DNA from: an uncultured Halanaerobiales bacterium
Lineage (GTDB): Bacteria; Bacillota; Halanaerobiia; B1SED10-174
NCBI GenBank assembly: GCA_964568715.1
Contig: CAZMQU010000004.1
Coordinates: 11,089 to 75,088, forward strand
DNA: 64,000 nucleotides
Reading direction: 5' to 3'
Shown here: positions 9,614 to 24,852 of the stretch, one piece after another
Position numbering within the stretch: the first letter of the stretch is position 1
Layout: every line of letters starts with the position of its first letter
The notes under the pieces: generated by a model
Seen by the model: the letters and a program-made list of their open reading frames with translations, nothing else
What the model was told of the DNA's origin: nothing
The model's database searches: none
Made by a program: the position numbers and the translations under genes

Positions 9614-11596
9614 TTAGGCGTTTTTACCGGCAAAATAGCCTCCGTGGATGGCATGAAGAATTTGGCCTGGCCTGAGACAATCGCCTACTGCTATAAAGTT
9701 ATCAACCTTTGATTTCCGCAATGCTTCTACTTTGTCCTCGGGAGATTTCATTCCCGCGGAAATAATAACCGTATCAGCCGGTAAAAACTTCTTTTTTGTT
9801 TGATTTTCCAGGTAATAAACCCCCTCCTTTGTTATTCTAATACAGGTACTATTGGTTAAAATTTGCAAGTTTCCCGGCAATTTATTAAATTCTTGGTGTA
9901 AAGCCTTTAAATGCAAGATTGGTGCATCTTTTGCCACCTGATCTTGCATTTCTATTATGGTAACCTTTTTGCCCTTTTGAGCCAAAATCAGGCCCTCTTC
10001 ACAGCCGGATAATCCACCACCGACGATGACTAGCCGCTTACCCAGGCCCTTCCTTTTTTTAATGATATCGTTAATTAAAAATACGTTGGGCAGATCTACC
10101 CCGGGTATTTGGGGAAGGAGGGGGATCGCACCTATGGCACAAATAAGTGTGTCGGGCTTGAAGTTGGCCAGCAACTTTGAAGTAACCTCAGTTTTCAAGC
10201 GGACTTCAATTTTAGGATTATCTTCTATGTTTTGGATTAAAAAATTGATAAAACGACTCAAATCCTTTTTAAAGTAGACTCCGGAGCTAATTGTTTTAAG
10301 AGGGCCACCCAAGTGGCCTTCTTTTTCGCAAAGTATTACTTCATGTCTTCTCTCCGCAGCACTAAGTGCCGCCTGCATGCCGCCGGGACCGCCACCGGCA
10401 ACCAGAACCCGTTTAGAGGATGGAAGAGGTTGGTAATAGGATTCGCGCAACTCCCTGCCTATTTGGGGATTAACGCTGCATTGGCTGATGCCCGAGGAAA
10501 TGGGAACGTAGGGGACATAATCCAGGCTCAGGCAGTGGTTGCATCGGATGCAGGGGCGGACTTCCCTTTCCCGTCCCTTTTTCACTTTAGCCGGGAAATA
10601 GGGGTCGGCCAAAATTTGCCGACCCATTACAATCACGTCGGCCTTTTCTTCACCTAGGAGAGACTCCATGTAAGCAGGATTGCTCAGGGCTCCTACGGTG
10701 GCAACAGGTATCTTGACCACTTTTTTAATTTCTGCTGCCAGATAGGTATTTACACCCTGGGGCAAGAAGGCGGAGGGGAACATGCGACAGCCGGAGTTGA
10801 CGTCTTTGAAAGAAGAGGCGGAAACATGGAGTAAATCGATTCTACCGTCAAGCATGCGAGCAAATTCCTTTGCTTCGTCGAGACCGTAGCCTCCTTCCAT
10901 GAATTCATCGCCGGAGAAACGGTATTCCAAAGGAAAATCAGGCCCTACCTGGGCCCGGATTCGCTCGATAACCATCAAGGGGAAGCGGGCCCTGTTTTCA
11001 ATGCTGCCTCCATAGCGATCCCGACGTCGGTTGTAGAGGGGGGAGAGGAATTGGCTTAAAAGCCAACCATGGCCGCCGTGGATCATGACCATATCGAAGC
11101 CGCCAAACTTGGCATTGAAGGCAGCCCGGGCAAAATGCTCAGCAACTTCTTCCATCATATCTTCATCCATTTCCCTAACTTCGACGCCATAGACTCCCAT
11201 CTCGGCACTGGGACCCCAGATTTCCCCTCCGGTGTAGCGAGGGTGAGCCCGGGCACCGCAGTGGAGGATTTCAATATTGGCCAGGGCGTTATGCTGGTGA
11301 ATTATGTCGGTCAACTGCAAGTGGCTGGGCATAAAACGTTCATCCCTCAGATTGCAAAGGTTACCGTGGGCACTGTCCGTTTTGTGACCGATCAGGGTTT
11401 CCCCCCGGGTGACTACTGCGGCACCGCCTTTGGCGCGCAATTCATAGGCCGCCAGATTTTGGTCCGATAAAAACCCCGAAGTATTCGGTTCGGAACCCAT
11501 CGGGGCTACGGCAATGCGGTTTTTCAATGTAAGTTTCCCTATTTTTATAGGGCTAAATAAAAGTGGATAATAGCTCATAATCATCTCTCCCGTCAC
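9614..11596 (-). CDS. Old Yellow Enzyme-family NADH:flavin oxidoreductase / 2,4-dienoyl-CoA reductase-like enzyme (FMN TIM-barrel + 4Fe-4S + FAD/NAD(P)-binding domain)
   Basis: The N-terminus MSYYPLLFSPIKIGKLTLKNRIAVAPMG is OYE-like. A CIRCNHC cluster motif is present. The C-terminal Rossmann motif is VLVAGGGPGGMQAALSAA...GHLGG. Confidence 0.8.
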   Translation of the reverse strand: MTGEMIMSYYPLLFSPIKIGKLTLKNRIAVAPMGSEPNTSGFLSDQNLAAYELRAKGGAAVVTRGETLIGHKTDSAHGNLCNLRDERFMPSHLQLTDIIHQHNALANIEILHCGARAHPRYTGGEIWGPSAEMGVYGVEVREMDEDMMEEVAEHFARAAFNAKFGGFDMVMIHGGHGWLLSQFLSPLYNRRRDRYGGSIENRARFPLMVIERIRAQVGPDFPLEYRFSGDEFMEGGYGLDEAKEFARMLDGRIDLLHVSASSFKDVNSGCRMFPSAFLPQGVNTYLAAEIKKVVKIPVATVGALSNPAYMESLLGEEKADVIVMGRQILADPYFPAKVKKGREREVRPCIRCNHCLSLDYVPYVPISSGISQCSVNPQIGRELRESYYQPLPSSKRVLVAGGGPGGMQAALSAAERRHEVILCEKEGHLGGPLKTISSGVYFKKDLSRFINFLIQNIEDNPKIEVRLKTEVTSKLLANFKPDTLICAIGAIPLLPQIPGVDLPNVFLINDIIKKRKGLGKRLVIVGGGLSGCEEGLILAQKGKKVTIIEMQDQVAKDAPILHLKALHQEFNKLPGNLQILTNSTCIRITKEGVYYLENQTKKKFLPADTVIISAGMKSPEDKVEALRKSKVDNFIAVGDCLRPGQILHAIHGGYFAGKNA

Positions 11597-12050: not shown

Positions 12051-13192
12051 TTGAAAAGAAAACTTTTGATCTGGGCTGTGCTGTTGTTGCTGGTACTGGT
12101 GGTGGGCTGCGATGGGAAAAAGGGTGGTTTGAGTGTCAAAGTATATGAAGGGGAAACCAGTGAATTTTTAAAGGTCAACTTGAAACTTACAATCGGCGGG
12201 AAAACAGCTTCTACTTCTTCGGGCCAATATACTTTTACACAAGTGCCTGTCGGTACCCATACCCTAACAGTCGAAGCTGCAGGCTATTTCGAAAAAAATC
12301 AAGAGGTTACCATCGAAGCGGGCAAGGTTGTGGACTGTGAGGTACGGTTGGTAAAAAACTATATCGCAGAGGTCAAGGTACCCGGAGGTATAAACCCCAT
12401 TGGCCTAAAAGATAACTATCTGATTACTCCAATTGATTCTTTCTTTATAGCCAAGTATGAAATAAGCTGGCAGGCCTGGAAAGAAGTCTATGATTGGGCC
12501 ACGGATGATGCGCGGCTGGGTAGAAAATATTATTTTGAAAATGAAGGCAAAATGGGTGAAGTCTTTTCGGGGGGGGTACCCCCATTACCACGGATGAAAA
12601 CCACCCGGTCACACATATTTCCTGGTATGATGCCATCGTTTGGTGCAATGCCCTGACCGAGTACTATAATCATTTCCAGGGTGAAAACTTGGAATGCGTT
12701 TATAAATCAAGTGGCGGATCGGTTCACCGTAGTTCCCAGGCAGCTTTTGTGCCACAGCTGGAGACGGTGAATCCCGACCCTGATGCCAAGGGTTTTCGTT
12801 TACCGTCTTCTAATGAGTGGGAACGGGCCGCCCGCTACAGGGACGGATCGAACTGGCTTGATGGCAACCATGCCAGCGGTGATCCTACCAAGCCATGCTG
12901 GACGGAGAGCGGCCAGGGCCTTTCGACCCTTTATGGCGACTATGCATGGCATGAGGGTAACAGCGAAGGTCATACTCACCCGGTTGGCAAAAAGAAAGAA
13001 AATGACTTGGGGATTTACGATATGAGCGGTAACGTTTCGGAATGGTGCTTTGATAAAGATGGTGACGATCGGGTTACCCATGGCGGGAGCGGCAAACTGG
13101 GCAACAGATGGCTGCAGATTGGTTTGCAAATTTCATGCGCTCCGGAATACACTTACAACGATTTGGGTTTGCGTCCCGTCAGGACCAAGTAG
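12051..13192 (+). pseudogene. FGE-sulfatase (SUMF1-like) domain lipoprotein, disrupted by a -1 frameshift in a G8 homopolymer (either phase-variable or a pseudogene)
   Basis: ORF 12051..12656 (frame 0) carries a signal peptide with a lipobox (VVGCDG) and a beta-sandwich domain. ORF 12689..13192 (frame 2) carries the FGE-domain motifs (GFRLPSSNEWERAARY, GIYDMSGNVSEWCF). Read in frame 2 from 12569, the sequence gives GGGTPITTDENHPVTHISWYDAIVWCNALTEYYN, which matches the paralogs. The junction is the G8 run at 12569-12576 followed by a C5 run. Confidence 0.7.
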
Positions 13193-13466
13193 GCGCGAAG
13201 CTTTTGCCGACGGTTATGAAAGCGGTTGCGGCATGGCTGTTTAAGGCTTAATGCGCTGGCTGCGGCGAATATTAACCGCTGCCTAAGAGTATAAGGCCTA
13301 TTATCTTTCAATGGATTTTATGCGACCCGGGGCAGGAATCTAGTATTTGGCAGCAATTTACGGCTGGCAAGAGAGGTATTTAAGGATTGGCTTGAATGGC
13401 AGAAAAAAGATGGATCGGAAAAAGTTTATTAGGGAAGGATTGAAGAAACCTTAAGGAGGGCTTGAG

Positions 13467-14618
13467 ATGAGCAGAAAGATTTTGGTTGTCGGTATGGCTT
13501 TGTTGATGCTCGCCTTGGTGGGCTGCGGGGGGAAAAAGGGCGTCTTGGAGGGGACTATTGTTAAGGAGGGCACTTCCGATTTAATTACAGATGAAGTGCT
13601 TGTCGAAGTGGCCGGCGAATCGATGACGACAGAAGACGGGAAATACGCCTTTGCCGGTATTTCCGCAGGGGTACACGTCCTTGAAGCCGTAGCTGACGGG
13701 TACAAGCCTTACAGCAGGCAAGTTATCGTCGAAGCAGGCAAAACGACGATACACAAGGTGGAGTTGACAGAAATTTTACCCCCTCTGGCCATTGAGGAAG
13801 CGGAAGTTCCGGCCACCCTTGCATTTCCGATGGAAACGGATGATTCAAAGACAAATATGCAACCATTTGACGATTTTTATATGGCCAAATACCAGGTAAC
13901 CTACGAATTGTGGAAGAAGGTCTATGATTGGGCAACAGATGAAGCAAGGGGGACAGGAAAATATACCTTTGCCAACGAAGGATTGAAGGGCAACGACGGT
14001 GACGCCGAAAAGACCGATCAACATCCCGTAACGAGCATCAATTGGCGGGATGCCGTGGTTTGGTGCAATGCTTTAACCGAGTATTACAATGGGGCAAACG
14101 ATGCGAACTTGGCTTGTGTTTACGTCGATACCAACAATAGAGTTATTCGCAAATCCGAGACCGGCACCCTTGCACCCACCATACAAGTTGCTGAAGGAGC
14201 CAAGGGCTTTCGCCTACCCACCAGCGTGGAATGGGAATTCGCCGCCCGCTACCGGGGCGATGATCCGACCAATACGGTAGAGGGTTTCTCAGATCCCTAT
14301 TTCACCAAGGGGGATTCCGCCAGCGGCGCCACCGCTAACTGGCAAGACAAAGAGGTCACCAAGCTGGTTGCCTGGTTTACAGAAAACAGCGGCGACTCTA
14401 CCCATGAGGTGGGCGGCCTGGCTGCGAACGCTTTGGGCATTTATGATATGAGCGGGAATGTCCGGGAATTCTGTTATACAAGCCGAGGGGATGGAAGGGC
14501 CCTTCGTAACGGTGGCTTCCGGGATATTGCCACTTTTCTGCAAATAGGTTACGAGCGGGAGCTTCGGGAGGATACAGTTTCGGAAGTTATCGGATTTAGG
14601 GTTGTGAGGACCAAATAA
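13467..14618 (+). CDS. Lipoprotein with an N-terminal CarboxypepD_reg/Ig-like beta-sandwich and a C-terminal FGE-sulfatase (formylglycine-generating-enzyme-like, DUF323) domain
   Basis: The signal peptide and lipobox are LALVGCGG. FGE-family motifs are present: HPVTSINWRDAVVWCNALTEYYNG, GFRLPTSVEWEFAARYRG and GIYDMSGNVREFCYT. It lacks the paired catalytic cysteines of true FGE. Confidence 0.8.
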   Translation: MSRKILVVGMALLMLALVGCGGKKGVLEGTIVKEGTSDLITDEVLVEVAGESMTTEDGKYAFAGISAGVHVLEAVADGYKPYSRQVIVEAGKTTIHKVELTEILPPLAIEEAEVPATLAFPMETDDSKTNMQPFDDFYMAKYQVTYELWKKVYDWATDEARGTGKYTFANEGLKGNDGDAEKTDQHPVTSINWRDAVVWCNALTEYYNGANDANLACVYVDTNNRVIRKSETGTLAPTIQVAEGAKGFRLPTSVEWEFAARYRGDDPTNTVEGFSDPYFTKGDSASGATANWQDKEVTKLVAWFTENSGDSTHEVGGLAANALGIYDMSGNVREFCYTSRGDGRALRNGGFRDIATFLQIGYERELREDTVSEVIGFRVVRTK

Positions 14619-14648
14619 ATTTTTCAGACTTGAGTACCTATAAATGAA

Positions 14649-14695
14649 AAAAGCCTTCCTTTGAACAGAGAAAAGTTCAAGGGGGGCTTTTTGTT
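14649..14695 (+). terminator. Rho-independent terminator after the FGE lipoprotein gene
   Basis: A nested hairpin, AAAAGCC...TTTGAAC-agagaaaa-GTTCAA-GGGGGGCTTTTT, is followed by a T-run. Confidence 0.5.
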
Positions 14696-14715
14696 AAGAA
14701 GAAATATGGTTGGTT

Positions 14716-14955
14716 TCAGATGAAATTTTCGTCTTTTCCTTTGATCATTTTGATATAAACCATCAATTTCTTGCGGTAATTCACATTCAGTTGTTGATAT
14801 TTCCGTTTTTTGTGATTTATGGACAAAAAAAGGGCATCAGCAGCTTCCTTGGCCTTGTAACCTCGGCAATAATGATCGAAGACACTTCGCTCTGCCGGTG
14901 TCAAGTTTTTAATATTGTCAGCAAATCTTTGCAAGAGTTGCTTGGCTTGCTGCAA
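14716..14955 (-). CDS. Stand-alone LuxR/FixJ-type HTH fragment (79 aa), probably a remnant of a duplicated membrane LuxR regulator
   Basis: LTPAERSVFDHYCRGYKAKEAADALFLSIN...YRKKLMVYIKMIKGK aligns to the C-terminal HTH of the 18697..20316 protein (LSPAEENVFNLYLKGHSAKEAAEILYLSINTIKTHNKRIYRKLNVSSRKELMILIKMM). It has a 4-aa gap in the recognition helix. No sensor domain lies upstream. Confidence 0.5.
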   Translation of the reverse strand: MQQAKQLLQRFADNIKNLTPAERSVFDHYCRGYKAKEAADALFLSINHKKRKYQQLNVNYRKKLMVYIKMIKGKDENFI

Positions 14956-15382
14956 GAAGTCTATAAGCGGGTAACAGACGAAGCAAAGGGAGATGGGTAG
15001 TATATATTTGGTAAATAAATTTGAAGTTTATTTATGGAAAACGTTTGCTTAGGCGATGGTATCGCTTTGGCAGCCGGTTATTTTTAAAGAGATGGCCGAT
15101 TATTTTTTACAACCGGCTTATACTTAATTTAGGGGATCATTTGCCAATTCCTCTTGCAAAATCACCCCTAATTCACCCCTTTGCAGAAAAATATCCAACA
15201 AAATCACCCTAAGGATGATTACAAATAAGAAAAAAAATTGTATATTAGGTCTGAAGAAACTTATTTTGCAGAAGCTGTTTTAGGACAACCGGAATTATTG
15301 TCTGTCCAAAAGCAGAGCATTTTGTCAACCTGACACCGGGTCAAGCAATTTACCGCCTGAAATTCTGTAAGGAGGTGTAGCA

Positions 15383-16252
15383 ATGCGGCAATATTTATCG
15401 CTTTTGCTATTGATTATTTGCCTGAACATATTTTCCGGTTGTAAAGCAAACGGGGTTTCCACAGTGAATTATAATAAGATCGAGGATAGGGCCCGGGTAG
15501 AAAGAGAAATTCTCCCGAAAATGCAAGTCAGCCGGGTAGAAGGGGCCAATATTAATAAGGGTGGGGGAAGCTATGCACAAAAAATACCGACAATAGCCGG
15601 CGGTTATAATGCTTATAAAGATGCCCGGGATGCTTTTGAGCGTTATGCTTTGGATATGAGTAATTTTTGTGGGACTGTTGCCTTAAATATAAGCTTGGTA
15701 AGTGCCTTTGAAGGAGAGATTTATTTTTATCTTTTGCCTTTGGATTTCATCGGCTTGTCAATAGATAGCTTGGGGTATTATGATGAATCAATGGAAGCAA
15801 CTTGGATCAAGATGGCTTTTGCCGGTGATGGTAAGATGATTATCGGCTCCGATGGTAGCTATCTTCTAACCGGTACTTCCGGTGAGGGTAAGTCGATGAT
15901 TTTGCAAATTGAATACCGACCTGAAGAAGATGAATTACGCTTGGAAGTGCAAGAAGACGGTAGACTGGCTTTACTTTTTGAATATATAAAAAACAAAGAA
16001 GGTTATGCCGCCCAGTATTACTTTAAGGCAGCCACCGGCTATTATGAAGATGCTCCAAAAGCAATGTGTGTCTATAGGACAATTTTCAACGGCTTGAACG
16101 GTTCCTGTGCCCGCTATGACGGTGTCGAATCAAAGCCGCAATCCTTGCTTGGCTCTGCTCCTTTAGGTGACGAATTTTTTGCCGGAGCAACCCACTGGTT
16201 TACTCTCACCAATGGAAGGTTTACAGGACTGCTAAATGGTAAGGCTTTTTAG
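15383..16252 (+). CDS. Hypothetical lipoprotein
   Basis: The signal peptide and lipobox are LNIFSGCKANG. It has a good RBS (AGGAGGTG, then 8 nt, then ATG). I recognised no conserved domain. Confidence 0.6.
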   Translation: MRQYLSLLLLIICLNIFSGCKANGVSTVNYNKIEDRARVEREILPKMQVSRVEGANINKGGGSYAQKIPTIAGGYNAYKDARDAFERYALDMSNFCGTVALNISLVSAFEGEIYFYLLPLDFIGLSIDSLGYYDESMEATWIKMAFAGDGKMIIGSDGSYLLTGTSGEGKSMILQIEYRPEEDELRLEVQEDGRLALLFEYIKNKEGYAAQYYFKAATGYYEDAPKAMCVYRTIFNGLNGSCARYDGVESKPQSLLGSAPLGDEFFAGATHWFTLTNGRFTGLLNGKAF

Positions 16253-16565
16253 TTCATAAAGTCGGTTGGGGGGGACAGTGTGTTTTCAAGTAGGTTCTTG
16301 TTTTATCGGAAATATGGCCAAGGGAAGATAGAGCTGATAATTAAAATAATCTAAATTAAAATGTTTTGTTTTCGATAAGTATTTTTTAATCATCCGATTA
16401 AAAAGCCTGGCGTAAAAAAACTATCGAAGGAGGTGATGGATCGGGTAATTATATAACTTAACCGGTTTGCGATAAAAATTGTCCTAACTTTGCCGAAAGC
16501 CGCTGTTCATATGGATCCTGTTTTGTTATTAGCCTATATCGTTCAATAGGGTCAAGAACGATGCA

Positions 16566-18332
16566 ATGAAAAAACAAATCAAACAATTGAGGTGGAAAAT
16601 AATGTTGAAAAGGGCATTTCTTTTTGTTTTAATTGGCGTTCTGGTTCTTACTACTGTTTTTATCGGATGTGAAGGTAAGAAAACAGGTCAATTAAAGGGT
16701 AAAATCTACGATGAAGCAACAGAAGAATTGGTTAAAGAAAGTATCACCATTACCCTAGGAGACAAGAACTTGCTTGTAGAGGATGGGGATTATATATTTA
16801 CCGACATAACCCCCGGTGAAAAGAGCCTGAAAGTTTTGGCTCCCGGTTATGAAGAATATAGTGCGACGGTGGTCATTGAAGCCGGTAAGGTAATGACTCA
16901 CGATGCTTATTTGATAAAAGAAGAATTGCCGATCGTAAAGGGTGCGCTGCAGGGTAAAATTATTGATAAAGAGCTCGGTATTTTAGTTACCGGAGCTGTT
17001 ACCGTAAAACTTGACGGCCAAGCTTCTACCTTCACCGATGGAGAATATATTTTTACCGATTTGGAGCCTGGTGAAAAAGAATTGCAAGTCAGCATACCCG
17101 CTTACAAAGTGTATTCTGCTAGAGTCGAAATTGAATCGGGAGAGACTACTGAGCATGATGTTTTACTGGAGCAAGCATTAAGAACTATTAAAGGAAAGAT
17201 TTTTGACAAAGCAAACGGAAATCTAATTACTCAAAGAGCAGACATTACGATAGAGTATGCCGATGGTGATTATGAAAGATCATTGACCGTTTATGATGGT
17301 GAATATTGTTTCGATGATTTGCCCTATTTTAAAGCAAATGCATACTGGCACATATCTTGCGCTACGGAAGACTATAAAACCCATTATACATTGCTAATCT
17401 TTTCCGGCAGTAATACCACCATTATTGAGAAAGATTTTTACCTTGATACAATAACCTTATCGCCGCTAAACCTTAATTTGATACCTATAACGGTAATTCC
17501 AGCGGAAGGGTTTCCCAAAGGAAACGATGATCTTTCCACGGGCCAGGTACCTGAACCCGATCTGTATTACCTGGGTAAATATCAAATTACTTATGGTTTG
17601 TGGCAGACTGTCTACAACTGGGCTACTGAGGAAGAACGCGGCGAAAATCGATACTATTTTCAAAATCCTGGGACAGGAACAGGTATTTTTCATCCGGTTA
17701 CGGGTATCAGTTGGCGGGATGCCATTGTCTGGTGCAATGCCTTAAGCGATTACTATCGGGAATCAAACGAGGATTACGAAAGCTATCCGGTTTATTTAGA
17801 TTCGGATAACTATGAACCTATTCGGGATTCCAGGGACAGTAACGGCGAAATCTGCGATAATGCCATATGCGCTTGGGAGGATGTTTACGGGTTTCGTCTA
17901 CCCACTTCAGAAGAATTTGAGGCAGCAGCCCGCTACATTGGGCCCGATAAGCCCACCGAAGGTGCAATTGGGGAAGAAGCTATCTTTAAAAACGATATTT
18001 ATTGGACGCCTCATAACTTTGCCAGCGGTGCTTTGGATGAAATAGATAACGAAGAGGCAACTACTGCCGTAGCCTGGTATTCACAAAACAGTGGTGATCA
18101 AATTCATCCTGTTGGCGATTTGTTGCCCAATGCTTTGGGGTTATACGACATGAGCGGCAATGTTTGGGAATATTGTTTTGCTTCAGGTGATGTTGGCAGA
18201 TGTGTTTTACGGGGTGGCCCTTTCAACGGGATGCGGGTAGATGTCGGTTATTACATTAGTGCTCCTTTTGATGATGGCTCCAATAATTTTGGCTTCCGTT
18301 TGGCCAGAAGCAGATATGAATTTAACTATTAA
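16566..18332 (+). CDS. Large lipoprotein with three tandem beta-sandwich repeats and a C-terminal FGE-sulfatase domain
   Basis: Lipobox VFIGCEG. There are three internal repeats of about 85 aa (GKIYDEATEEL...GDYIFTDITPGEKSLKVLAPGYEEYSATVVIEAGKVMTHDAYL; GKIIDKELGIL...GEYIFTDLEPGEKELQVSIPAYKVYSARVEIESGETTEHDVLL; GKIFDKANGNL...). FGE motifs are HPVTGISWRDAIVWCNALSDYY, GFRLPTSEEFEAAARY and GLYDMSGNVWEYCF. Confidence 0.8.
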   Translation: MKKQIKQLRWKIMLKRAFLFVLIGVLVLTTVFIGCEGKKTGQLKGKIYDEATEELVKESITITLGDKNLLVEDGDYIFTDITPGEKSLKVLAPGYEEYSATVVIEAGKVMTHDAYLIKEELPIVKGALQGKIIDKELGILVTGAVTVKLDGQASTFTDGEYIFTDLEPGEKELQVSIPAYKVYSARVEIESGETTEHDVLLEQALRTIKGKIFDKANGNLITQRADITIEYADGDYERSLTVYDGEYCFDDLPYFKANAYWHISCATEDYKTHYTLLIFSGSNTTIIEKDFYLDTITLSPLNLNLIPITVIPAEGFPKGNDDLSTGQVPEPDLYYLGKYQITYGLWQTVYNWATEEERGENRYYFQNPGTGTGIFHPVTGISWRDAIVWCNALSDYYRESNEDYESYPVYLDSDNYEPIRDSRDSNGEICDNAICAWEDVYGFRLPTSEEFEAAARYIGPDKPTEGAIGEEAIFKNDIYWTPHNFASGALDEIDNEEATTAVAWYSQNSGDQIHPVGDLLPNALGLYDMSGNVWEYCFASGDVGRCVLRGGPFNGMRVDVGYYISAPFDDGSNNFGFRLARSRYEFNY

Positions 18333-18696: not shown

Positions 18697-20316
18697 TTAT
18701 AAGGATTGTTCGTGTTTTTCCTGCATCATTTTTATTAGAATCATCAACTCTTTGCGGGAGCTAACATTTAGTTTTCGGTAGATCCTTTTATTGTGAGTTT
18801 TAATTGTATTGATGGACAGATAAAGGATTTCGGCGGCTTCCTTGGCGCTATGCCCTTTTAAATAAAGATTGAAGACATTTTCTTCCGCAGGTGACAGGGT
18901 TTTGATATTGTTGATAAAGTTTTGGAGAAGAGTAGAGTCGCCGGCCAGAATTTCTCTTATAGTAAGTCTTTGCTTTGTCTTTTCCCGGCTTGCCCAAAAG
19001 TTAACCAGTTCATCGATTTCTTGAATGTTTGTCTTGGTCTGTTCTATTGACGGGTCGCCCTTCATCCTTTCAAAGGTATCGACTAAAGGCTTAATTAGGC
19101 GACGGCTTAAAAATACTCCGGCGCTGATGCTGAGGGCAAATAGAAATAAAAGCAAAAGTAATATCGGTTTGTTTTGTTGCATAATCAGAGGGCCAAGATT
19201 ATTTTGCGGAATCAGCAAAGCCAAGGCCCATTGGGTATCGGCAAAGGCCGCATCTTTTGGATAAAGATTGATGGTTTTTTGGATGCCGTAGTATGTAGAA
19301 TGGTCTGCAAGGGCATATTGCAGCAAGCCCTTTTTGCTTTTTTGAAAGGTTAAAAAGCCTCCCTTTTCAGAGGGAACGGTAGTATAGTTAGCTGCAAAAA
19401 GGGCCCCTGAAACATCAAGATTAGCCTCTGCCAAAGGAGCAAGCATGGCGAAGGTGTGGGTATAGTAGCTACCGGCAGGAGTATGTTGCAATTTAAAGAG
19501 CATTTCACTTATCTCGAAGCCGCAAACCCCCATGATAATGCCGTCAGGGCTGATAAGGGGGATGGTGAGGAGTATGGCTTTTTCACAAGCTTCGCCTAAA
19601 GAAGTAGCCGGATTCCAATAGTAAAGTCGTGACAAGGGAAGCTTGCTGTGTTTGGCTTCATTGAGCGTAAAAGAAAAAAAGTCATCGGGGGCAATTGAAA
19701 ATTCCATTTGCCATTGGGGGAGCAAATCCAATCCTTTTTTGCGGGCTATTGTGACCGGGCCACGCAGATAGCGGATAGTAGGGAAAACAACATTGACAAT
19801 ATTTGGCTCCATATTTTTCAAAAAAATGCCGGCTCGGGATCGGTTGGCTGTGGGCAAAGCAGGGTTGATGGTAGCATCCAATACGAGAAATGCGCCGCTA
19901 CATTTGCTTTTTCCCAGAGCCGCTATCAATGAATCCAGTGAATTGGTCAAGAGAAGTTCGAGTTGTTCGGGATAATTTTGTAAATCGGCAGGGGCAATAT
20001 CCAGCCGGCGGAGGTCTGCTATCAGATTTTGAGCTAAAGTTTGAGCTAAGATGACTCCTTCAACGGCTAAAACATTAAATTCGCGGGAGATTCGCGGTGC
20101 TGTATGCTCCAATTCATTATGTAAAAAGACGCAAAATTCTCGCTGACCGCCGGAAAAGACGCCGGTAGCATATAAAATTATAAGTAGTGCAAACATAATT
20201 GCCAGCAAGAATAATAAAAAGAAAGTCAAAGAATGCCTTCGCAGGCTAGGATCTTTTTCCCAGAGGGACCGGATATTCGGTATTATATTTTTCAACACTA
20301 ACCTAAATTTGGTCAC
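18697..20316 (-). CDS. Membrane-tethered one-component transcriptional regulator: TM, an extracytoplasmic sensor domain of about 320 aa, a second TM, and a C-terminal LuxR-type HTH
   Basis: TM1 is LTFFLLFLLAIMFALLIILYATGVF and TM2 is ILLLLLFLFALSISAGVFL. The C-terminal HTH is LSPAEENVFNLYLKGHSAKEAAEILYLSINTIKTHNKRI. It has no kinase or receiver domains. Confidence 0.75.
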   Translation of the reverse strand: MTKFRLVLKNIIPNIRSLWEKDPSLRRHSLTFFLLFLLAIMFALLIILYATGVFSGGQREFCVFLHNELEHTAPRISREFNVLAVEGVILAQTLAQNLIADLRRLDIAPADLQNYPEQLELLLTNSLDSLIAALGKSKCSGAFLVLDATINPALPTANRSRAGIFLKNMEPNIVNVVFPTIRYLRGPVTIARKKGLDLLPQWQMEFSIAPDDFFSFTLNEAKHSKLPLSRLYYWNPATSLGEACEKAILLTIPLISPDGIIMGVCGFEISEMLFKLQHTPAGSYYTHTFAMLAPLAEANLDVSGALFAANYTTVPSEKGGFLTFQKSKKGLLQYALADHSTYYGIQKTINLYPKDAAFADTQWALALLIPQNNLGPLIMQQNKPILLLLLFLFALSISAGVFLSRRLIKPLVDTFERMKGDPSIEQTKTNIQEIDELVNFWASREKTKQRLTIREILAGDSTLLQNFINNIKTLSPAEENVFNLYLKGHSAKEAAEILYLSINTIKTHNKRIYRKLNVSSRKELMILIKMMQEKHEQSL

Positions 20317-20346
20317 TCCCGACCACCCGGCCTTAAGTTAATAATG

Positions 20347-21723
20347 TTAAAAATTCAGAAATTTTTGGTAGATATCAGCGTTTAAATCATTAATGCTTTG
20401 ATCGGTTGCCAGGTATTCATCTTTACCTGCAAGCATGGCTTCTTTTATCTTGGTTTCATATTCTTTGCTTAAGGCATCGAAATTTTCATAATTGGGCGGT
20501 ACCAAAAAAGTGTAGTCCTTGTACATTTCGATGACGGTTCGGAGGAGCTTTTGCAAATTTTCATTTTCAATGTAATCGATTTCCTGTTGCATATTGACTT
20601 CAAAAGCTTTCTTTGTCACCGGTAAATAGCCGGTGGAAGAAACGAAGCGCATATTCTGTTCAGGTTGGGTAAACCATTTTAAAAACAGTGCGGCGGCGTA
20701 TTCTTTTTCCGGGGTCGCCCTACCGATGCACATACCGCCTCCCCGTTGGAGGGCAATCTTTTGGCCTGCCTCGAAGGTCGGGTAGGGCAGAACGGTAAAG
20801 GAAACTTTTTCAGTTGTATTGTCCGGATATGTTACTTGATCACCGTAAAACAATATGCCTGCTGTGGAGCCGGTTGAGCAAAGAATTTCGCCTGTTCGCA
20901 CCAAATCGGAGGAGTAGCCGGTAGTAATCGCATAACCGCCGGTAATAGCCGGCAAAACTGTGCAATCCCAAATATGACGGAAAATGTTCCCATGTGTTTC
21001 CAGTCCTTTGGCTGTAACAAAGTCGCCGCCTAACTGGGCAGTGCCAACCTGAGCAATATTGAACCAGGAATCCGCCGTAAAGAAGGTAGTACCGGCTTTA
21101 TAATGGGATGGTGATTGAGAAGTAGCCCATTGGTGATAGTCTGTAGCGACTTTGCCCAAGCCCTCAAAGGTAGCTAGATCTTCCAAACCGGCGCCCGTTG
21201 CAGCGGAAAAACGATCAAACAGAGTCTGGTTGACGAAAAGAACCTCGGTGGATTTGGCGACAGGAAAGACATAGAGATTGCCATCTGTAAGGCATCCTTC
21301 GGCAATAAATTGGGGCAAGTAGGCCTCCAGCTCCTTGTCTGTAAAAAAATCGTCCAGCGGAACGATTAAATCTTCCTCGACCAGGGTTAGGGCTGTCTTG
21401 GGGTAAGTTGTGACAATATTGGGCATCAACGGGGCACCGGGATCGCCGGCAGCGATTAGGAACAGCTTTTCTTGGATGCTGGCTGAGCCGGATATGGATG
21501 TAACGTTGACCATGACCCCTTTTTTGCGCCCTAAAGAGTTGTTGAATTCGTCAACCAATGCATCCATTGCACTCTGCATTTGGCCACCGTAATTGTGCCA
21601 CATAGTAATAGTCACGGGATTTTTGGGATCGAGCTTAACGCCATTGCAGCTTGTAAGTAAAAAGGCTAAACTTAAAAAAATAACCGCCAAGATAAGTATT
21701 TTTCTAATGGATAACACCCCCAT
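20347..21723 (-). CDS. ABC transporter substrate-binding lipoprotein (family 1, carbohydrate-type SBP)
   Basis: Lipobox LLTSCNG. It is about 458 aa and the overall pattern is SBP_bac_1-like. It lies directly upstream of, and co-oriented with, the membrane LuxR regulator, with a 30-nt gap. Confidence 0.75.
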   Translation of the reverse strand: MGVLSIRKILILAVIFLSLAFLLTSCNGVKLDPKNPVTITMWHNYGGQMQSAMDALVDEFNNSLGRKKGVMVNVTSISGSASIQEKLFLIAAGDPGAPLMPNIVTTYPKTALTLVEEDLIVPLDDFFTDKELEAYLPQFIAEGCLTDGNLYVFPVAKSTEVLFVNQTLFDRFSAATGAGLEDLATFEGLGKVATDYHQWATSQSPSHYKAGTTFFTADSWFNIAQVGTAQLGGDFVTAKGLETHGNIFRHIWDCTVLPAITGGYAITTGYSSDLVRTGEILCSTGSTAGILFYGDQVTYPDNTTEKVSFTVLPYPTFEAGQKIALQRGGGMCIGRATPEKEYAAALFLKWFTQPEQNMRFVSSTGYLPVTKKAFEVNMQQEIDYIENENLQKLLRTVIEMYKDYTFLVPPNYENFDALSKEYETKIKEAMLAGKDEYLATDQSINDLNADIYQKFLNF

Positions 21724-23229: not shown

Positions 23230-24852
23230 GTGATCGTGGCAATAATAATGACCCTTGTATTCCCTTTGGGTGTTTTCGGTAAAAAAGCTAACCCTAGCGT
23301 TGCACTTGTATTGGGGGGAGGTTCAGCCCGTGGTTTGAGCCATATTGGTTTTATCAAAGCCATGGAAGAACAGGGGATTCCAATTGATCTATTGGTTGGG
23401 ACAAGCATGGGCAGTATTATTGCCGGTATTTATGCTGCCGGTTACTCGACTGACAATATGATACATATCTTCTCAACTTTGGATATGGCCTCCCTTCTCG
23501 ATATTCCAATGCCCCCCCTGGGCGGTGTTCTTGATACTGCCGGTTTACAATTGTATCTGGACAAGATGCTGCGGGGAATGTGCTTTGATGAGTTGTCCAT
23601 CCCTTTTTATTCAGTAGTGGTTAACCTGGGTACCGGTAAAGAGGAGGCATTGAATGAGGGAAAGGTTAGTACTGCCATTCAAGCCAGTATGTCTATTCCC
23701 GGTGTTTTTATGCCGGTTGAAATCGATGGACAACACTATGTAGACGGTGGTTTGAAAAATCAGGTTGCTGCTAATGTGGCCGCTGACAAGGGTGCCGATG
23801 TCATAGTTGCCGTATGTTTGGAGCACGATTATCAAGAGCCGAATTTTAAAGATATAATAAATAACTTACGCATGTCCTTGACCGCCATGATGGATGGCTA
23901 TGTTGATATACATACCGCCATGGCCGATGTGCTAGTCTTACCTGAAGTGGATTTTGGTTCATCTATGGACTATTACCGGGTGCCGTATTTTGTTACTCAA
24001 GGTTACAAGGCCGGCAATGAGTATGCTACGGAGATAAAAGAGGCCATCTTGGCCCAAAATCCTTCCTATAAATTCATTCCTTATAAGCAACCCGGTTGCA
24101 GTACCGGTGAATTGAATCAATTGTTGCGAGAAGCGGAGCTTGCTGCAGCCACACTGCCCAAACGTTTCACTTTGAAAACTCTTTTGACTTACGATAGAGA
24201 TTACAATTTTACAAAAATGGGCTTGAAGTTTACCCATGGCCCCCTAAATTTGTTTGGTGTCGGTTATCGTTATGGGTTCGATTCGCAGGATGGTGGGCAT
24301 GAATTGTTTTTGGATTGGGGGACCGAAAAGACTGGAGCGGCCGATCTTTATCTCCGATTAAACCCTAATAGAAGTAAGCCTTCTTTTGGGTTTTCTCTCC
24401 GAAGCCCTGAATATAATAACCTTGCTTTAGAAGCAGCGTATGTATCTCAAGGGGAAAAGGCTTGGCGATTATCCGTTACCAATAATTCACTTTTGAATCT
24501 CCCTCGGGTAGTTGCAGGGTTATCATTGCAAGTTCACAGGCTTCGTACCGATGAAACCAGTGTACCGTATGCAGAAAAAATTATTTTGAATGCTATGCCA
24601 AGGTTAAGAATATATCCTTGGGAAGACAAGCGTTTTGCCTTGGGAGCTGCCTTAATAAGACCGTACCTTTTAACGGGTGCTTCTATAGGCACAAAGATCA
24701 GCAAATTTGAACCTATTGTATCCATCAAAACCGGCATGGGCTTGGATTTCCAATTGATGGGCCTTTATCCGGGTACGTTTTTTGCCGGTATTCAATTTGA
24801 CGGTACCGGTAAGTTAAAAGGGAAGTTCGAATTAAAGATGGGTGATCTGTAG
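23230..24852 (+). CDS. Patatin-like phospholipase (PNPLA) with a C-terminal beta-strand-rich domain of about 250 aa
   Basis: Patatin motifs are present: the oxyanion motif LVLGGGSARG, the GxSxG motif GTSMGS, and DGG (YVDGGL). The C-terminal half shows alternating hydrophobic residues and is G/Y-rich, which looks beta-barrel-like. The start is uncertain. A signal-like sequence, KRTKKQLAVVIVAIIMTLVFPLGVFG, is in frame just upstream of the annotated GTG. Confidence 0.8.
   Translation: MIVAIIMTLVFPLGVFGKKANPSVALVLGGGSARGLSHIGFIKAMEEQGIPIDLLVGTSMGSIIAGIYAAGYSTDNMIHIFSTLDMASLLDIPMPPLGGVLDTAGLQLYLDKMLRGMCFDELSIPFYSVVVNLGTGKEEALNEGKVSTAIQASMSIPGVFMPVEIDGQHYVDGGLKNQVAANVAADKGADVIVAVCLEHDYQEPNFKDIINNLRMSLTAMMDGYVDIHTAMADVLVLPEVDFGSSMDYYRVPYFVTQGYKAGNEYATEIKEAILAQNPSYKFIPYKQPGCSTGELNQLLREAELAAATLPKRFTLKTLLTYDRDYNFTKMGLKFTHGPLNLFGVGYRYGFDSQDGGHELFLDWGTEKTGAADLYLRLNPNRSKPSFGFSLRSPEYNNLALEAAYVSQGEKAWRLSVTNNSLLNLPRVVAGLSLQVHRLRTDETSVPYAEKIILNAMPRLRIYPWEDKRFALGAALIRPYLLTGASIGTKISKFEPIVSIKTGMGLDFQLMGLYPGTFFAGIQFDGTGKLKGKFELKMGDL

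What the first reader, a model, noticed from the sequence alone, without database searches (positions are those of the whole stretch)
12051..18332. Variable cluster of three paralogous FGE-sulfatase (SUMF1-fold) lipoproteins with tandem N-terminal beta-sandwich repeats
Three genes (12051..13192, 13467..14618, 16566..18332) share a C-terminal FGE/DUF323 domain with motifs HPVTxIxWxDAxxWCNALxxYY, GFRLPxxxEWExAARY and GxYDMSGNVxE. Their N-terminal beta-sandwich repeats differ in number (1, 1 and 3). All have lipoboxes. They lack the Cys pair of true formylglycine-generating enzymes, so the function is unknown. Possibilities are cell-surface binding or a non-FGE oxidative enzyme. Their copy-number expansion, internal repeat expansion, one frameshifted copy and a neighbouring LuxR fragment mark this as a fast-evolving surface-protein locus.
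Basis: partly seen in the sequence, partly recalled or inferred. Interest (0 to 1): 0.65.

Follow-up and report, generated by a model that had tools for sequence, protein, structure and literature searches.

The report
TvpA-like non-catalytic FGE-fold lipoprotein cluster
Three neighbouring genes encode membrane-anchored surface proteins built on the formylglycine-enzyme fold; they have lost the enzyme's catalytic cysteines and most resemble known ligand-binding proteins, so this is an ordinary, already-annotated kind of bacterial surface-protein family with a few modestly interesting local features.

Summary
Three + strand genes (12051..13192 frameshifted, 13467..14618, 16566/16602..18332) encode lipoproteins with one, one and three CarboxypepD_reg-type beta-sandwiches followed by a PF03781 FGE-sulfatase domain. 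The catalytic Cys pair of FGE is absent. By sequence profile and by predicted fold, the nearest solved proteins are not FGE. They are TvpA (the Treponema DGR variable protein) and CarF, both non-catalytic envelope proteins. The last ~40 residues align to TvpA's variable ligand-binding region. This tail is hypervariable across the family and between the three paralogs, between invariant scaffold residues. I found no DGR. There is no template repeat or reverse transcriptase in the window or about 7-10 kb beyond each end. The three tails cannot share one template, and they are identical between independent samples. The paralogs are old (38-42% identity), and the g1-g2 tandem is conserved in another species. 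The "fast-evolving" label is therefore only partly right. The frameshift lies in a G8 tract that is G6 (in frame) in another sample, which may reflect phase variation, decay or sequencing error. A conserved SBP + membrane-LuxR gene pair flanks these genes here and in one related group (two species). Best reading: a repertoire of non-enzymatic surface binding lipoproteins, a new member of a known kind, of modest interest.

The parts
12051..13192 (+). g1: FGE-fold lipoprotein gene, frameshifted in this sequence. Frame A runs 12051..12656. The true continuation is in the +1 frame, from about 12569 to 13192. The intact form is 379 aa.
   Evidence: ORFs. Pfam CarboxypepD_reg + FGE-sulfatase. Intact 379-aa version in L002. 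Strong AGGAGG Shine-Dalgarno before the TTG start.
12569..12576 (+). G8 homopolymer, the site of the frameshift. G6 or G9 would be in frame. L002 has G6.
   Evidence: Sequence. Window vs L002 alignment shows a 2-G deletion in L002. Only two G>=8 runs occur in 64 kb, against 0.6 expected.
13070..13189 (+). g1 C-terminal tail (RVTHGG...RPVRTK), equivalent to the TvpA variable region.
13467..14618 (+). g2: intact 383-aa lipoprotein. Signal peptide and lipobox at residues 1-20, beta-sandwich at about residues 24-101, FGE-subtype C-type-lectin domain at about residues 115-383.
   Evidence: AF2 model pLDDT 92.6. Foldseek best hits CarF and TvpA.
14496..14615 (+). g2 C-terminal tail (residues 344-383). 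Hypervariable positions lie between the scaffold residues R344, R347, G349, G361, G376-F-R378 and R381.
   Evidence: Alignment to the TvpA C-terminus. Per-column entropy 3.0-3.8 bits against a core mean of 1.45. FGE Cys336/Cys341 map here to I354 and T356.
14655..14686 (+). Terminator-like hairpin (12-bp stem followed by a T-run) after g2.
14716..14955 (-). Remnant of a second LuxR-type regulator gene (C-terminal HTH only, 79 codons), convergent with g2 just as the intact regulator is convergent with g3.
   Evidence: Pfam GerE E 1.8e-4. 51% aa identity to residues 455-536 of the 539-aa protein. DNA repeat D2.
15383..16252 (+). 289-aa predicted lipoprotein (IFSGC lipobox) of a small uncharacterised family, inserted between g2 and g3.
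   Evidence: No Pfam, NCBIfam or PADLOC hit. Only 48 representative clusters in 1.84 billion proteins.
16602..18332 (+). g3: lipoprotein with three tandem beta-sandwich repeats (about 16680-16940, 16941-17186, 17187-17465) and an FGE-subtype domain (about 17514-18314). The ORF opens at 16566, but the probable start is 16602.
   Evidence: 576-aa gene call in L001.
18198..18329 (+). g3 C-terminal tail (RCVLRGG...GFRLARSRYEFNY). It contains a run of 20 consecutive NNY codons.
18697..20316 (-). 539-aa membrane-bound LuxR/GerE-type one-component regulator. It has two hydrophobic segments (about residues 30-54 and 372-396) flanking a ~320-aa extracytoplasmic domain, and a C-terminal HTH.
   Evidence: Pfam GerE E 3.1e-12. 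Sequence. Conserved full-length family in Clostridia. 50% identical ortholog next to FGE lipoproteins in L083-L086.
20347..21723 (-). 458-aa SBP_bac_8 solute-binding lipoprotein, immediately upstream of the LuxR-type gene and in the same direction. This is a conserved gene pair.
   Evidence: Pfam. 61% identical ortholog in L083-L085. The pair is conserved in every sampled neighbourhood.

Best explanation
The three genes encode non-catalytic, lipid-anchored surface proteins.

Domain layout:
- A signal peptide with a lipobox cysteine tethers each protein to the outer face of the membrane.
- One to three transthyretin/PEGA-like beta-sandwich domains act as a stalk.

Proposed binding site:
- The site is the C-terminal ~40 residues. 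Conserved scaffold residues (R..RGG....G......P.......GFR.VRT) hold a set of positions that differ completely between the three paralogs.
- The cluster therefore provides a small repertoire of different binding specificities. The ligand is unknown; a glycan or another cell-surface or matrix component is the most plausible guess.

Local features:
- In this genome one member (g1) is switched off by a frameshift in a G8 tract that is G6 (in frame) in another sample.
- The adjacent, conserved pair of a solute-binding lipoprotein and a membrane-spanning LuxR-type regulator may sense an external signal and control these genes.

Shown:
- Domain architecture.
- Fold kinship.
- Loss of the catalytic cysteines.
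- Tail hypervariability.
- G-tract polymorphism.
- Conserved neighbourhood in one related group of Firmicutes MAGs (two species).

Inferred:
- Surface exposure.
- Binding function.
- Regulation by the LuxR pair.
- Phase variation.
For: Domain architecture: Pfam PF03781 + PF13620.

Kinship to non-enzymes:
- The family profile matches TvpA (2y3c) at E 8.5e-38 over its full length and CarF (5aoh) at 6.7e-32. True FGEs score only 1e-8 to 1e-11.
- The AF2 model (pLDDT 92.6) gives Foldseek E 6.8e-17 for CarF and 1.3e-14 for TvpA, against about 2e-9 for FGE/PvdO and weaker for EgtB/OvoA.

Loss of catalysis: catalytic Cys336 and Cys341 align to non-Cys hypervariable columns.

Binding tail:
- The tail aligns to the TvpA C-terminal VR.
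- TvpA's VR is its C-terminal 45 aa, with solvent-exposed variable residues forming the binding site and an invariant final beta5 strand (PMC6328139). TvpA has no FGE activity and is thought to bind ligands (PMC5758913).
- Tail entropy is 3.0-3.8 bits at variable positions, against a core mean of 1.45. Paralog identity is 40-50% in the core and 26-36% in the tail.

Other points:
- Lipoboxes are read directly from the sequences.
- The Ca-site-like motif D-M-S-G-N-V-x-E is invariant and aligns to FGE N-I-V-G-N-A-W-E.
- G8 vs G6 polymorphism.
- SBP + LuxR orthologs (61% and 50% identity) sit beside CarboxypepD_reg+FGE lipoproteins in the related P0002 and P0003 species. A LuxR remnant lies behind g2, mirroring the intact one behind g3.
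- Tandem arrays of this family recur in 13 of 80 related loci.
Against: - No ligand or binding experiment exists for any close relative. TvpA's and CarF's own mechanisms are unknown.
- Surface exposure is inferred from lipoboxes only; no signal-peptide predictor was available.
- The SBP-LuxR pair is conserved on its own in many Clostridia without FGE lipoproteins nearby, and a close homolog, P0007, lacks it. The regulatory link is therefore weak.
- No shared operator-like motif was found upstream of g1, g2 and g3.
- The G-tract difference rests on two assemblies and could be sequencing or assembly error, or simple pseudogenisation.
- Public sources name relatives 'SUMF1/EgtB/PvdO family nonheme iron enzyme'.
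Confidence: 0.65

Rival explanations
1. The genes are remote targets of a diversity-generating retroelement (DGR) located elsewhere in the genome, or recent ex-targets. On this reading, the divergent tails were written by adenine mutagenesis of a template repeat, as for TvpA and its seven scattered paralogs in Treponema denticola.
For: - TvpA is the closest solved relative by profile, and the divergent tail aligns exactly to its VR.
- FGE-sulfatase lipoproteins are the largest DGR target class, and remote targets more than 100 kb away are known (PMC5758913).
- Target genes persist in strains that lack the DGR core (PMC4891356).
- The g3 tail holds the longest NNY-codon run in the window, 20 codons, which is the footprint expected from AAY template codons.
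- Only 64 kb of the 216-kb contig, and none of the rest of the genome, could be examined.
Against: - No template repeat was found by BLAST or by an adenine-tolerant scan (best 99/141, noise level).
- No reverse transcriptase was found among the window ORFs scanned, nor about 7-10 kb beyond each window end.
- The three tails differ at silent sites and in scaffold codons, so they cannot share one template.
- The g1 and g3 tails are unchanged in the independent contigs that cover them; g2's are too, but those contigs were retrieved by exact g2 protein match.
- In the sister lineage, two alleles 96% identical differ only in the 5' 700 nt and not in the tail.
- The screen was validated by a positive control (L078: 22 of 22 mismatches at template A). 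It found a TR/VR pair in only 1 of 80 related loci.
- NNY runs of 19 and 17 codons occur in unrelated genes in the window.
- The g1 and g2 tails show no NNY bias.
Confidence: 0.08
2. They are enzymes: FGE-like or 'nonheme iron' oxidases, as the public annotation implies, acting on an extracytoplasmic substrate through a catalytic site different from that of FGE.
For: - PF03781 membership.
- Sources name relatives 'SUMF1/EgtB/PvdO family nonheme iron enzyme' or 'formylglycine-generating enzyme'.
- Several members of the fold are enzymes: FGE, EgtB, OvoA.
Against: - The Cys336/Cys341 equivalents are absent and fall in the most variable columns of the family. A catalytic site would be conserved.
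- There is no DinB-type N-terminal domain of the kind found in EgtB/OvoA. The N-terminus is a beta-sandwich.
- Enzyme members are much more distant than TvpA and CarF.
- No sulfatase gene was seen among about 27 window ORFs scanned.
- The gene content suggests an anaerobe: selenocysteine formate dehydrogenase, radical SAM and an enoate-reductase-like flavoprotein. O2-dependent chemistry would be unexpected there (inference).
Confidence: 0.07
3. They are structural subunits of an envelope machine, like the FGE-fold lipoproteins PorK/GldK/GldJ of the type IX secretion and gliding apparatus.
For: - The best NCBIfam hits are GldK and GldJ (E 6e-14 for g2).
- PorK structures appear among the PDB hits.
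- All are lipoproteins with a non-catalytic FGE fold.
Against: - Scores are far below the family cut-offs (52 bits against 350 for GldK).
- No PorL/M/N-like partners were found among the window ORFs scanned.
- The relatives are Firmicutes and Spirochaetes, where T9SS is not known (established knowledge).
- A hypervariable tail and variable copy number do not fit a stoichiometric machine part.
Confidence: 0.05
4. The cluster's 'variability' is mostly artefact or decay. On this reading the G8/G6 difference is a homopolymer sequencing or assembly error or a dead pseudogene, and nothing in the locus is phase-variable or fast-evolving.
For: - There are only two observations of the tract.
- The source appears to be metagenome-derived, since related records are metagenome assemblies.
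- The rest of the cluster is 99.7-99.9% identical between samples.
- The lesions in the sister lineage's second copy are deletions or mosaics, not homopolymer slips, and could be chimeric assembly.
Against: - A two-base length difference is less typical of a simple homopolymer miscall.
- Another G8 run at 63421 lies inside an intact ORF, so the assembly does not systematically miscall G8.
- 9 of 12 SNPs between the window and L002, plus the indel, fall within g1. The two alleles are therefore distinct.
Confidence: 0.15

Closest known systems
TvpA (Treponema denticola variable protein A, PDB 2y3c) and the 'category b' FGE-sulfatase/CLec1 DGR target proteins
   Same: - Lipoprotein with an FGE-subtype C-type-lectin fold.
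- All three scaffold motifs are shared (HPV..NW..A..CN.L, GFRLPT..EWE.AA, G.YD..GNV.EWC).
- No catalytic cysteines.
- The variable, presumably ligand-binding segment is the last ~40-45 residues, ending in an invariant GFR-type strand.
- Occurs as multiple paralogs per genome.
- Best profile hit, E 8.5e-38 (PMC5758913, PMC6328139).
   Different: - No template repeat, reverse transcriptase or accessory gene was detected.
- The tails are not derived from one template and do not vary between samples.
- These proteins carry N-terminal CarboxypepD_reg beta-sandwich stalk domains that TvpA lacks.
- The host is a Firmicute-like organism rather than a spirochaete.
CarF (carbapenem intrinsic-resistance protein of Serratia/Pectobacterium, PDB 5aoh)
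   Same: - Best structural match (Foldseek E 6.8e-17, TM 0.74-0.76 normalised to the target) and second-best profile match.
- Exported, non-FGE member of the fold, with a protective or binding role rather than a known catalytic one (PMC11778176).
   Different: - CarF is a single-domain protein encoded in an antibiotic biosynthesis operon together with CarG.
- No such operon is present here.
- Sequence identity is only about 24%.
PorK / GldK / GldJ (T9SS and gliding lipoproteins)
   Same: Non-catalytic FGE-fold lipoproteins of the cell envelope. They are the best NCBIfam hits.
   Different: - Scores are far below the equivalog cut-offs.
- No T9SS partner genes are present.
- The phylum is different.
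- PorK forms a fixed ring and does not have a variable tail.
Formylglycine-generating enzyme (human SUMF1, bacterial FGEs)
   Same: - Same Pfam family and overall fold.
- The Ca-site-like motif (NIVGNAWEW in FGE, DMSGNVxEW here) is conserved.
   Different: - Cys336 and Cys341 are replaced by variable non-Cys residues.
- The relationship is much more distant (E 1e-8 to 1e-11).
- These proteins are lipid-anchored, with beta-sandwich stalks.

Membership tests
Pfam PF03781 FGE-sulfatase (SUMF1-like domain) superfamily | Significant match to the family profile above the gathering score | tested here: met
   70.5, 95.6 and 76.0 bits against a cut-off of 23.3.
Catalytic formylglycine-generating enzyme (FGE/SUMF1) | Copper-binding catalytic cysteine pair (human Cys336/Cys341, CxxxxC) | tested here: not met
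   hhalign of family alignment A3 to validated human FGE gives probability 97.8%. Cys336 aligns to I and Cys341 to T in g2, both in hypervariable columns. No CxxxxC is present in any of the three tails.
Catalytic formylglycine-generating enzyme (FGE/SUMF1) | Genomic or functional association with Cys-type sulfatases | tested here: inconclusive
   No PF00884 sulfatase was found among about 27 window ORFs scanned. Not all ORFs were scanned, and the rest of the genome was not examined.
DGR variable protein (TvpA class) | [quoted passage not shown] | tested here: met
DGR variable protein (TvpA class) | Cognate template repeat differing from the VR only at adenines | tested here: not met
   None was found in the window by BLAST or by the adenine-tolerant scan. 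The method was validated on L078. The rest of the genome is not available.
DGR variable protein (TvpA class) | DGR reverse transcriptase and accessory gene in the genome | tested here: inconclusive
   None was found in the window ORFs scanned or in about 7-10 kb beyond either end. About 150 kb of the contig and the rest of the genome were not seen.
DGR variable protein (TvpA class) | VR differs between closely related strains or samples while the rest of the gene is constant | tested here: not met
   The g1 and g3 tails are unchanged in the independent contigs that cover them; g2's are too, but those contigs were retrieved by exact g2 protein match. The sister-lineage alleles differ only in the 5' part.
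T9SS PorK/GldK/GldJ | Equivalog-level match to TIGR03525/TIGR03524/TIGR03530 | tested here: not met
   52.2 bits against a cut-off of 350 (GldK), and 24-29 bits against 382-458 (GldJ).
EgtB/OvoA sulfoxide synthases | N-terminal DinB-type domain carrying the iron-binding histidines | tested here: not met
   The N-terminal region is a CarboxypepD_reg beta-sandwich. EgtB/OvoA are only distant fold hits, E about 1e-5 to 1e-6.
Bacterial lipoprotein | N-terminal signal peptide (basic n-region, hydrophobic h-region) ending in a lipobox [LVI][ASTVI][GAS]C | tested here: met
   Read from the sequences: g1 MKRKLLIWAVLLLLVLVVGC, g2 MSRKILVVGMALLMLALVGC, g3 MLKRAFLFVLIGVLVLTTVFIGC. No dedicated predictor was available.
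Phase-variable (contingency) gene | Homopolymer or short repeat inside the ORF whose length differs between isolates and switches the frame | tested here: inconclusive
   The window has G8 (out of frame) and L002 has G6 (in frame). There are only two observations, and no read-level data.

The most novel reading that the evidence does not exclude
The locus could be a DGR-independent binding-repertoire system in an uncultured Clostridia-like bacterium. It would consist of a set of TvpA-like lipoproteins whose specificity is varied by paralog choice. One member would be toggled by slipped-strand phase variation at a poly-G tract, and the set would be expressed under control of a conserved solute-binding-protein plus membrane-LuxR sensor. 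Alternatively, g3, with its NNY-rich tail, could be a remote target of a DGR elsewhere in the genome.
Probability: 0.12. Interest if true: 0.5.

Novelty: new member of a known kind. Interest (0 to 1): 0.3.

Why it matters
- **Annotation.** Thousands of proteins like these are labelled 'formylglycine-generating enzyme' or 'nonheme iron enzyme'. This case shows that such lipoproteins lack the catalytic cysteines and belong with the TvpA/CarF binding proteins, so the enzyme label is probably misleading for this clade.
- **Evolution of the scaffold.** The same C-terminal segment that DGRs mutagenise in Treponema is hypervariable here without any detectable DGR. This suggests the scaffold is used for diversification of binding specificity by ordinary paralog divergence as well.
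- **Testable leads.** The possible poly-G switch and the conserved SBP + membrane-LuxR neighbours can be tested, but neither would be a surprise to specialists.

Tried and rejected
1. **DGR hypothesis.**
   - I searched for a template repeat by BLAST and by an adenine-tolerant sliding match, and found none.
   - I screened 80 related loci for A-specific TR/VR pairs. Only the positive control L078 was found.
   - I checked NNY-codon bias. The g3 run of 20 is the longest in the window, but runs of 19 and 17 occur in unrelated genes.
   - I compared strain alleles and found no tail variation.
   - I rejected it as the main explanation but could not exclude it for the unseen part of the genome.
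2. **More observations of the G tract.** A search with the intact g1 did not find it indexed elsewhere.
3. **Organism identification.**
   - Cluster look-ups carry no names.
   - Only accession-level leads were obtained: GCA_040436515.1, GCA_040364275.1, and runs SRR22941227 and SRR24100343.
   - Relatives are Firmicutes/Bacillota MAGs.
4. **Shared operator motif** upstream of g1, g2 and g3: none found.
5. **Rfam regulatory RNAs** in the window: none.
6. **PADLOC defence families** for the cluster proteins: none relevant.
7. **Gene conversion** from local paralogs as the source of the SNP patch at 12395-12458: the variant residues do not match g2 or g3.
8. **The TvpA structure paper** (PMC3167528) was not held in the library.

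Full report
**1. Observation**

The region 12051-18332 holds three + strand genes, as described.
- g1 is split into two frames, 12051..12656 and 12689..13192.
- g2 is 13467..14618 (383 aa).
- g3 is 16566..18332 (588 aa). Its probable start is the ATG at 16602. That ATG has a GAGGTGG Shine-Dalgarno 7 nt upstream and matches the 576-aa gene call on an independent contig.

Pfam assigns each C-terminal half to PF03781 FGE-sulfatase (E 2.4e-19, 5.2e-27 and 4.8e-21). It assigns the N-terminal parts to PF13620 CarboxypepD_reg and related PEGA-like beta-sandwiches. g3 has three such repeats, the third more degenerate.

The quoted motifs are present. The one deviation is EF instead of EW in the second motif of g3. 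Lipoboxes (LVVGC, ALVGC, VFIGC) follow typical signal peptides.

A LuxR/GerE fragment lies at 14716..14955 (-). It is 51% identical to the C-terminus of the intact 539-aa LuxR-type gene at 18697..20316 (-).

**2. The frameshift**

g1 changes frame at a G8 run, 12569-12576. One more G (G9) or two fewer (G6) restores "...SGG(G)TPITTDENHPVTHISWYDAIVWCNAL...".

An independent metagenome contig (L002, SRR24100343) is 99.7% identical over 4.9 kb. It has G6 and an intact 379-aa gene.

G runs of 8 or more are rare in the window: two observed against about 0.6 expected. The other run lies inside an intact ORF.

Of the 12 SNPs between the window and L002, 9 fall inside g1, and 7 of those lie within 64 bp. 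The two g1 alleles are therefore distinct.

There are only two observations of the tract. A search for further copies of g1 found none indexed. Phase variation, a fixed pseudogene and a homopolymer error all remain possible.

**3. What the C-terminal domain is**

- A sequence search of PDB with g2 finds CarF (5aoh) and TvpA (2y3c), but no FGE, at E <= 0.001.
- A profile of 27 family members matches TvpA at E 8.5e-38 over its full length and CarF at 6.7e-32. True FGEs, pFGE, PvdO and CalU17 score only 1e-6 to 1e-13.
- An AlphaFold2 model of g2 is confident (mean pLDDT 92.6, pTM 0.85).
- Foldseek against PDB ranks CarF (E 6.8e-17) and TvpA (1.3e-14) first. Human and bacterial FGE and PvdO follow at about 2e-9, then PorK and EgtB/OvoA.

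I then aligned it to the family profile (hhalign probability 97.8%). Cys336 and Cys341 fall on I and T of g2, in columns that are among the most variable of the family. None of the three tails contains a CxxxxC pair.

The motif DMSGNVxE is invariant in the family. It aligns to FGE NIVGNAWE. From my recollection of the FGE structure papers, that segment forms a structural Ca2+ site; this point is inference.

These are therefore FGE-fold proteins that are not FGEs, and they belong with the non-catalytic TvpA/CarF branch.

**4. The variable tail and the DGR question**

TvpA is the variable protein of the Treponema denticola diversity-generating retroelement (DGR).
- Its variable region is the C-terminal 45 residues.
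- The variable residues are solvent-exposed and form the presumed binding site, and the final strand is invariant (PMC6328139).
- FGE-sulfatase proteins are the largest class of DGR targets.
- TvpA has no FGE activity and seven remote paralogous targets (PMC5758913). Most such targets are lipoproteins, and target genes persist in strains without the DGR core (PMC4891356).

In the present family, the last ~40 residues align to the TvpA C-terminal VR.
- They are strikingly variable: per-column entropy is 3.0-3.8 bits at positions 352-375 of g2, against a core mean of 1.45 bits.
- The variable positions lie between nearly invariant scaffold residues: R344, R347, G349, G361, G376-F-R378 and R381.
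- Among the three window paralogs, the core is 40-50% identical and the tail 26-36%.

I tested whether a DGR is responsible.
- BLAST of the three 3' ends against the window finds only the paralogs, and only upstream of the tails.
- An adenine-tolerant sliding match, in which the template equals the VR with any base allowed to be A, gives at best 99/141. That match is in an A-rich stretch and is at noise level.
- No reverse transcriptase is among the window ORFs scanned, nor in about 7-10 kb beyond each window end.
- The three tails differ at silent sites and in scaffold codons, so they cannot be co-targets of one template.
- The g1 and g3 tails are unchanged in the independent contigs that cover them; g2's are too, but those contigs were retrieved by exact g2 protein match.
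- In a sister lineage, two alleles 96% identical differ at 52 positions, all in the first 700 nt and none in the tail.
- A screen of 80 related loci for repeat pairs with adenine-specific mismatches recovered one clear DGR (L078: 22 of 22 mismatches at template A). This validates the method and shows that most of the family is not DGR-adjacent.
- One suggestive point remains. The g3 tail carries 20 consecutive NNY codons, the longest run in the window. However, runs of 19 and 17 occur in unrelated genes.

DGR targeting is therefore unlikely, but it cannot be excluded for the unseen part of the genome.

**5. Age and dynamics of the cluster**

- The three paralogs are 38-42% identical.
- A different organism (L087) has a g1 ortholog (56% identity) followed by a g2 ortholog (58%). 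The tandem is therefore old.
- g2 and the FGE part of g1 are compositionally atypical: GC 51-52% and GC3 about 56%. Other window ORFs have GC 42.9 +/- 2.5% and GC3 43.5 +/- 3.3%.
- g3 looks native at GC 41.7%. Sister lineages have about 48-49% GC, so the g1-g2 pair may have been imported.
- Tandem arrays of this family recur elsewhere: 13 of 80 loci have at least 2 copies, and one has 7.
- In the closest lineage (P0002, 49% identity), collinear strains carry the second copy in different states: intact (L085), internally deleted (L083), partly replaced (L086), or duplicated as a mosaic (L084). Metagenome assembly chimeras cannot be excluded for these.
- 'Variable' is therefore fair at the level of copy integrity and the G tract. 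'Fast-evolving' overstates what the strain comparison shows.

**6. Neighbourhood**

Downstream of g3, and convergent with it, lies an operon of two genes.
- The first is an SBP_bac_8 solute-binding lipoprotein (20347..21723, -).
- The second is the 539-aa LuxR-type protein. It has two hydrophobic segments flanking a ~320-aa extracytoplasmic region, and a C-terminal GerE HTH. It looks like a membrane-bound one-component regulator.

Orthologs of both (61% and 50% identity, full length) sit directly beside CarboxypepD_reg+FGE lipoproteins in the P0002 and P0003 lineages. There the arrangement is divergent rather than convergent.

The LuxR remnant behind g2 mirrors the intact gene behind g3. This suggests an ancestral duplication of a lipoprotein-regulator unit.

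However, the SBP-LuxR pair is conserved by itself in many Clostridia, with other envelope genes as neighbours. A close FGE-lipoprotein homolog lacks it. I also found no shared upstream motif. A regulatory link is a reasonable hypothesis and no more.

Between g2 and g3 lies a 289-aa predicted lipoprotein of a very small uncharacterised family.

**7. Mechanism proposed**

- Lipid-anchored proteins project a TvpA-like binding domain on a stalk of one to three beta-sandwiches.
- The ligand-binding face is built from the C-terminal variable segment.
- Three paralogs with unrelated tails give three specificities.
- g1 is off in this genome through the poly-G frameshift.
- Expression may depend on the neighbouring SBP/LuxR sensor.

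Confidence is about 0.65 for 'non-catalytic binding lipoproteins'. It is much lower for the regulatory and phase-variation elements. Rivals are scored in the dedicated fields: remote DGR targets, cryptic enzymes, PorK-like structural subunits, and artefact or decay.

**8. Comparison and novelty**

The proteins pass the membership test for the PF03781 superfamily and for lipoproteins.

They fail the defining tests for:
- catalytic FGE (no Cys pair);
- EgtB/OvoA (no DinB domain);
- PorK/GldK/GldJ (scores far below the cut-offs);
- DGR variable proteins in the functional sense (no TR, no RT seen, no strain-level VR variation).

They work most like TvpA/CarF-type binding proteins.

Thousands of homologs already exist in public databases under generic FGE/SUMF1 names. 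This is therefore a new member of a known kind, and overall interest is modest (0.3).

Noticed in passing
window 44894..47569 (+), stop at 45938-45940: The molybdopterin oxidoreductase (formate-dehydrogenase-like) gene is a single frame interrupted by TGA in the context NCARV-TGA-HAPTVAGL. This is very likely a selenocysteine codon, so the two listed ORFs are one selenoprotein gene.
   Followed up: partly
window 15383..16252 (+): A 289-aa predicted lipoprotein (IFSGC lipobox) has no Pfam, NCBIfam or PADLOC match and only 48 representative clusters among 1.84 billion proteins. It is absent from the homologous clusters in sister lineages, so it looks like an insertion between g2 and g3.
   Followed up: partly
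window 18697..21723 (-); L083-L091, L095: An SBP_bac_8 lipoprotein immediately followed by a ~540-aa two-TM LuxR/GerE protein is an invariably conserved gene pair across Clostridia (Syntrophomonadaceae, Desulfotomaculum, Intestinimonas, Christensenellales). It appears to be an uncharacterised SBP-dependent membrane one-component regulator.
   Followed up: partly
window 12590..14618 vs 16602..18332: g2 and the FGE part of g1 have GC 51-52% and GC3 about 56%, more than 3 sd above other window ORFs. The adjacent flavin oxidoreductase (9614..11596) has GC 48.6%. g3 is compositionally native. This suggests the g1-g2 tandem arrived by transfer from a higher-GC relative.
   Followed up: partly
window 12395..12458: Seven SNPs lie within 64 bp between the window and L002, in the linker before the FGE domain of g1 (3 non-synonymous). 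The surrounding 4.9 kb has only 5 other SNPs. This looks like a recombination patch, but it does not match g2 or g3.
   Followed up: partly
window 18246..18305 (g3 tail): A run of 20 consecutive NNY codons (DVGYYISAPFDDGSNNFGFR) is the longest in the window and sits exactly in the TvpA-VR-equivalent segment. It is compatible with a past DGR footprint but not statistically compelling, because runs of 19 and 17 occur elsewhere.
   Followed up: yes
window 5..1180, 4398..6542; L093 7076..14035: There are several paralogous TPR-GAF-GGDEF diguanylate cyclases at and beyond the left end of the window: at least five copies within about 20 kb.
   Followed up: no
window 23230..24852, 33176..34873, 29934..31376: Two patatin-like phospholipase paralogs flank a protein with an anthrax-lethal-factor-type (ATLF, PF07737) metalloprotease domain.
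   Followed up: no
L078 10406..10534 and 12202..12330: A Saprospiraceae MAG locus carries a clean DGR VR/TR pair (129 nt, 22 of 22 mismatches at template adenines) on an FGE-fold gene. It served as the positive control for the DGR screen.
   Followed up: partly
L084 11227..13891 vs L085 11227..12453: In the sister lineage one strain has an extra, mosaic copy of the second FGE lipoprotein: the 5' 847 nt are 99.9% identical to the neighbour's copy, and the 3' part is 88.6% identical. This could be tandem recombination or a metagenome assembly chimera.
   Followed up: partly
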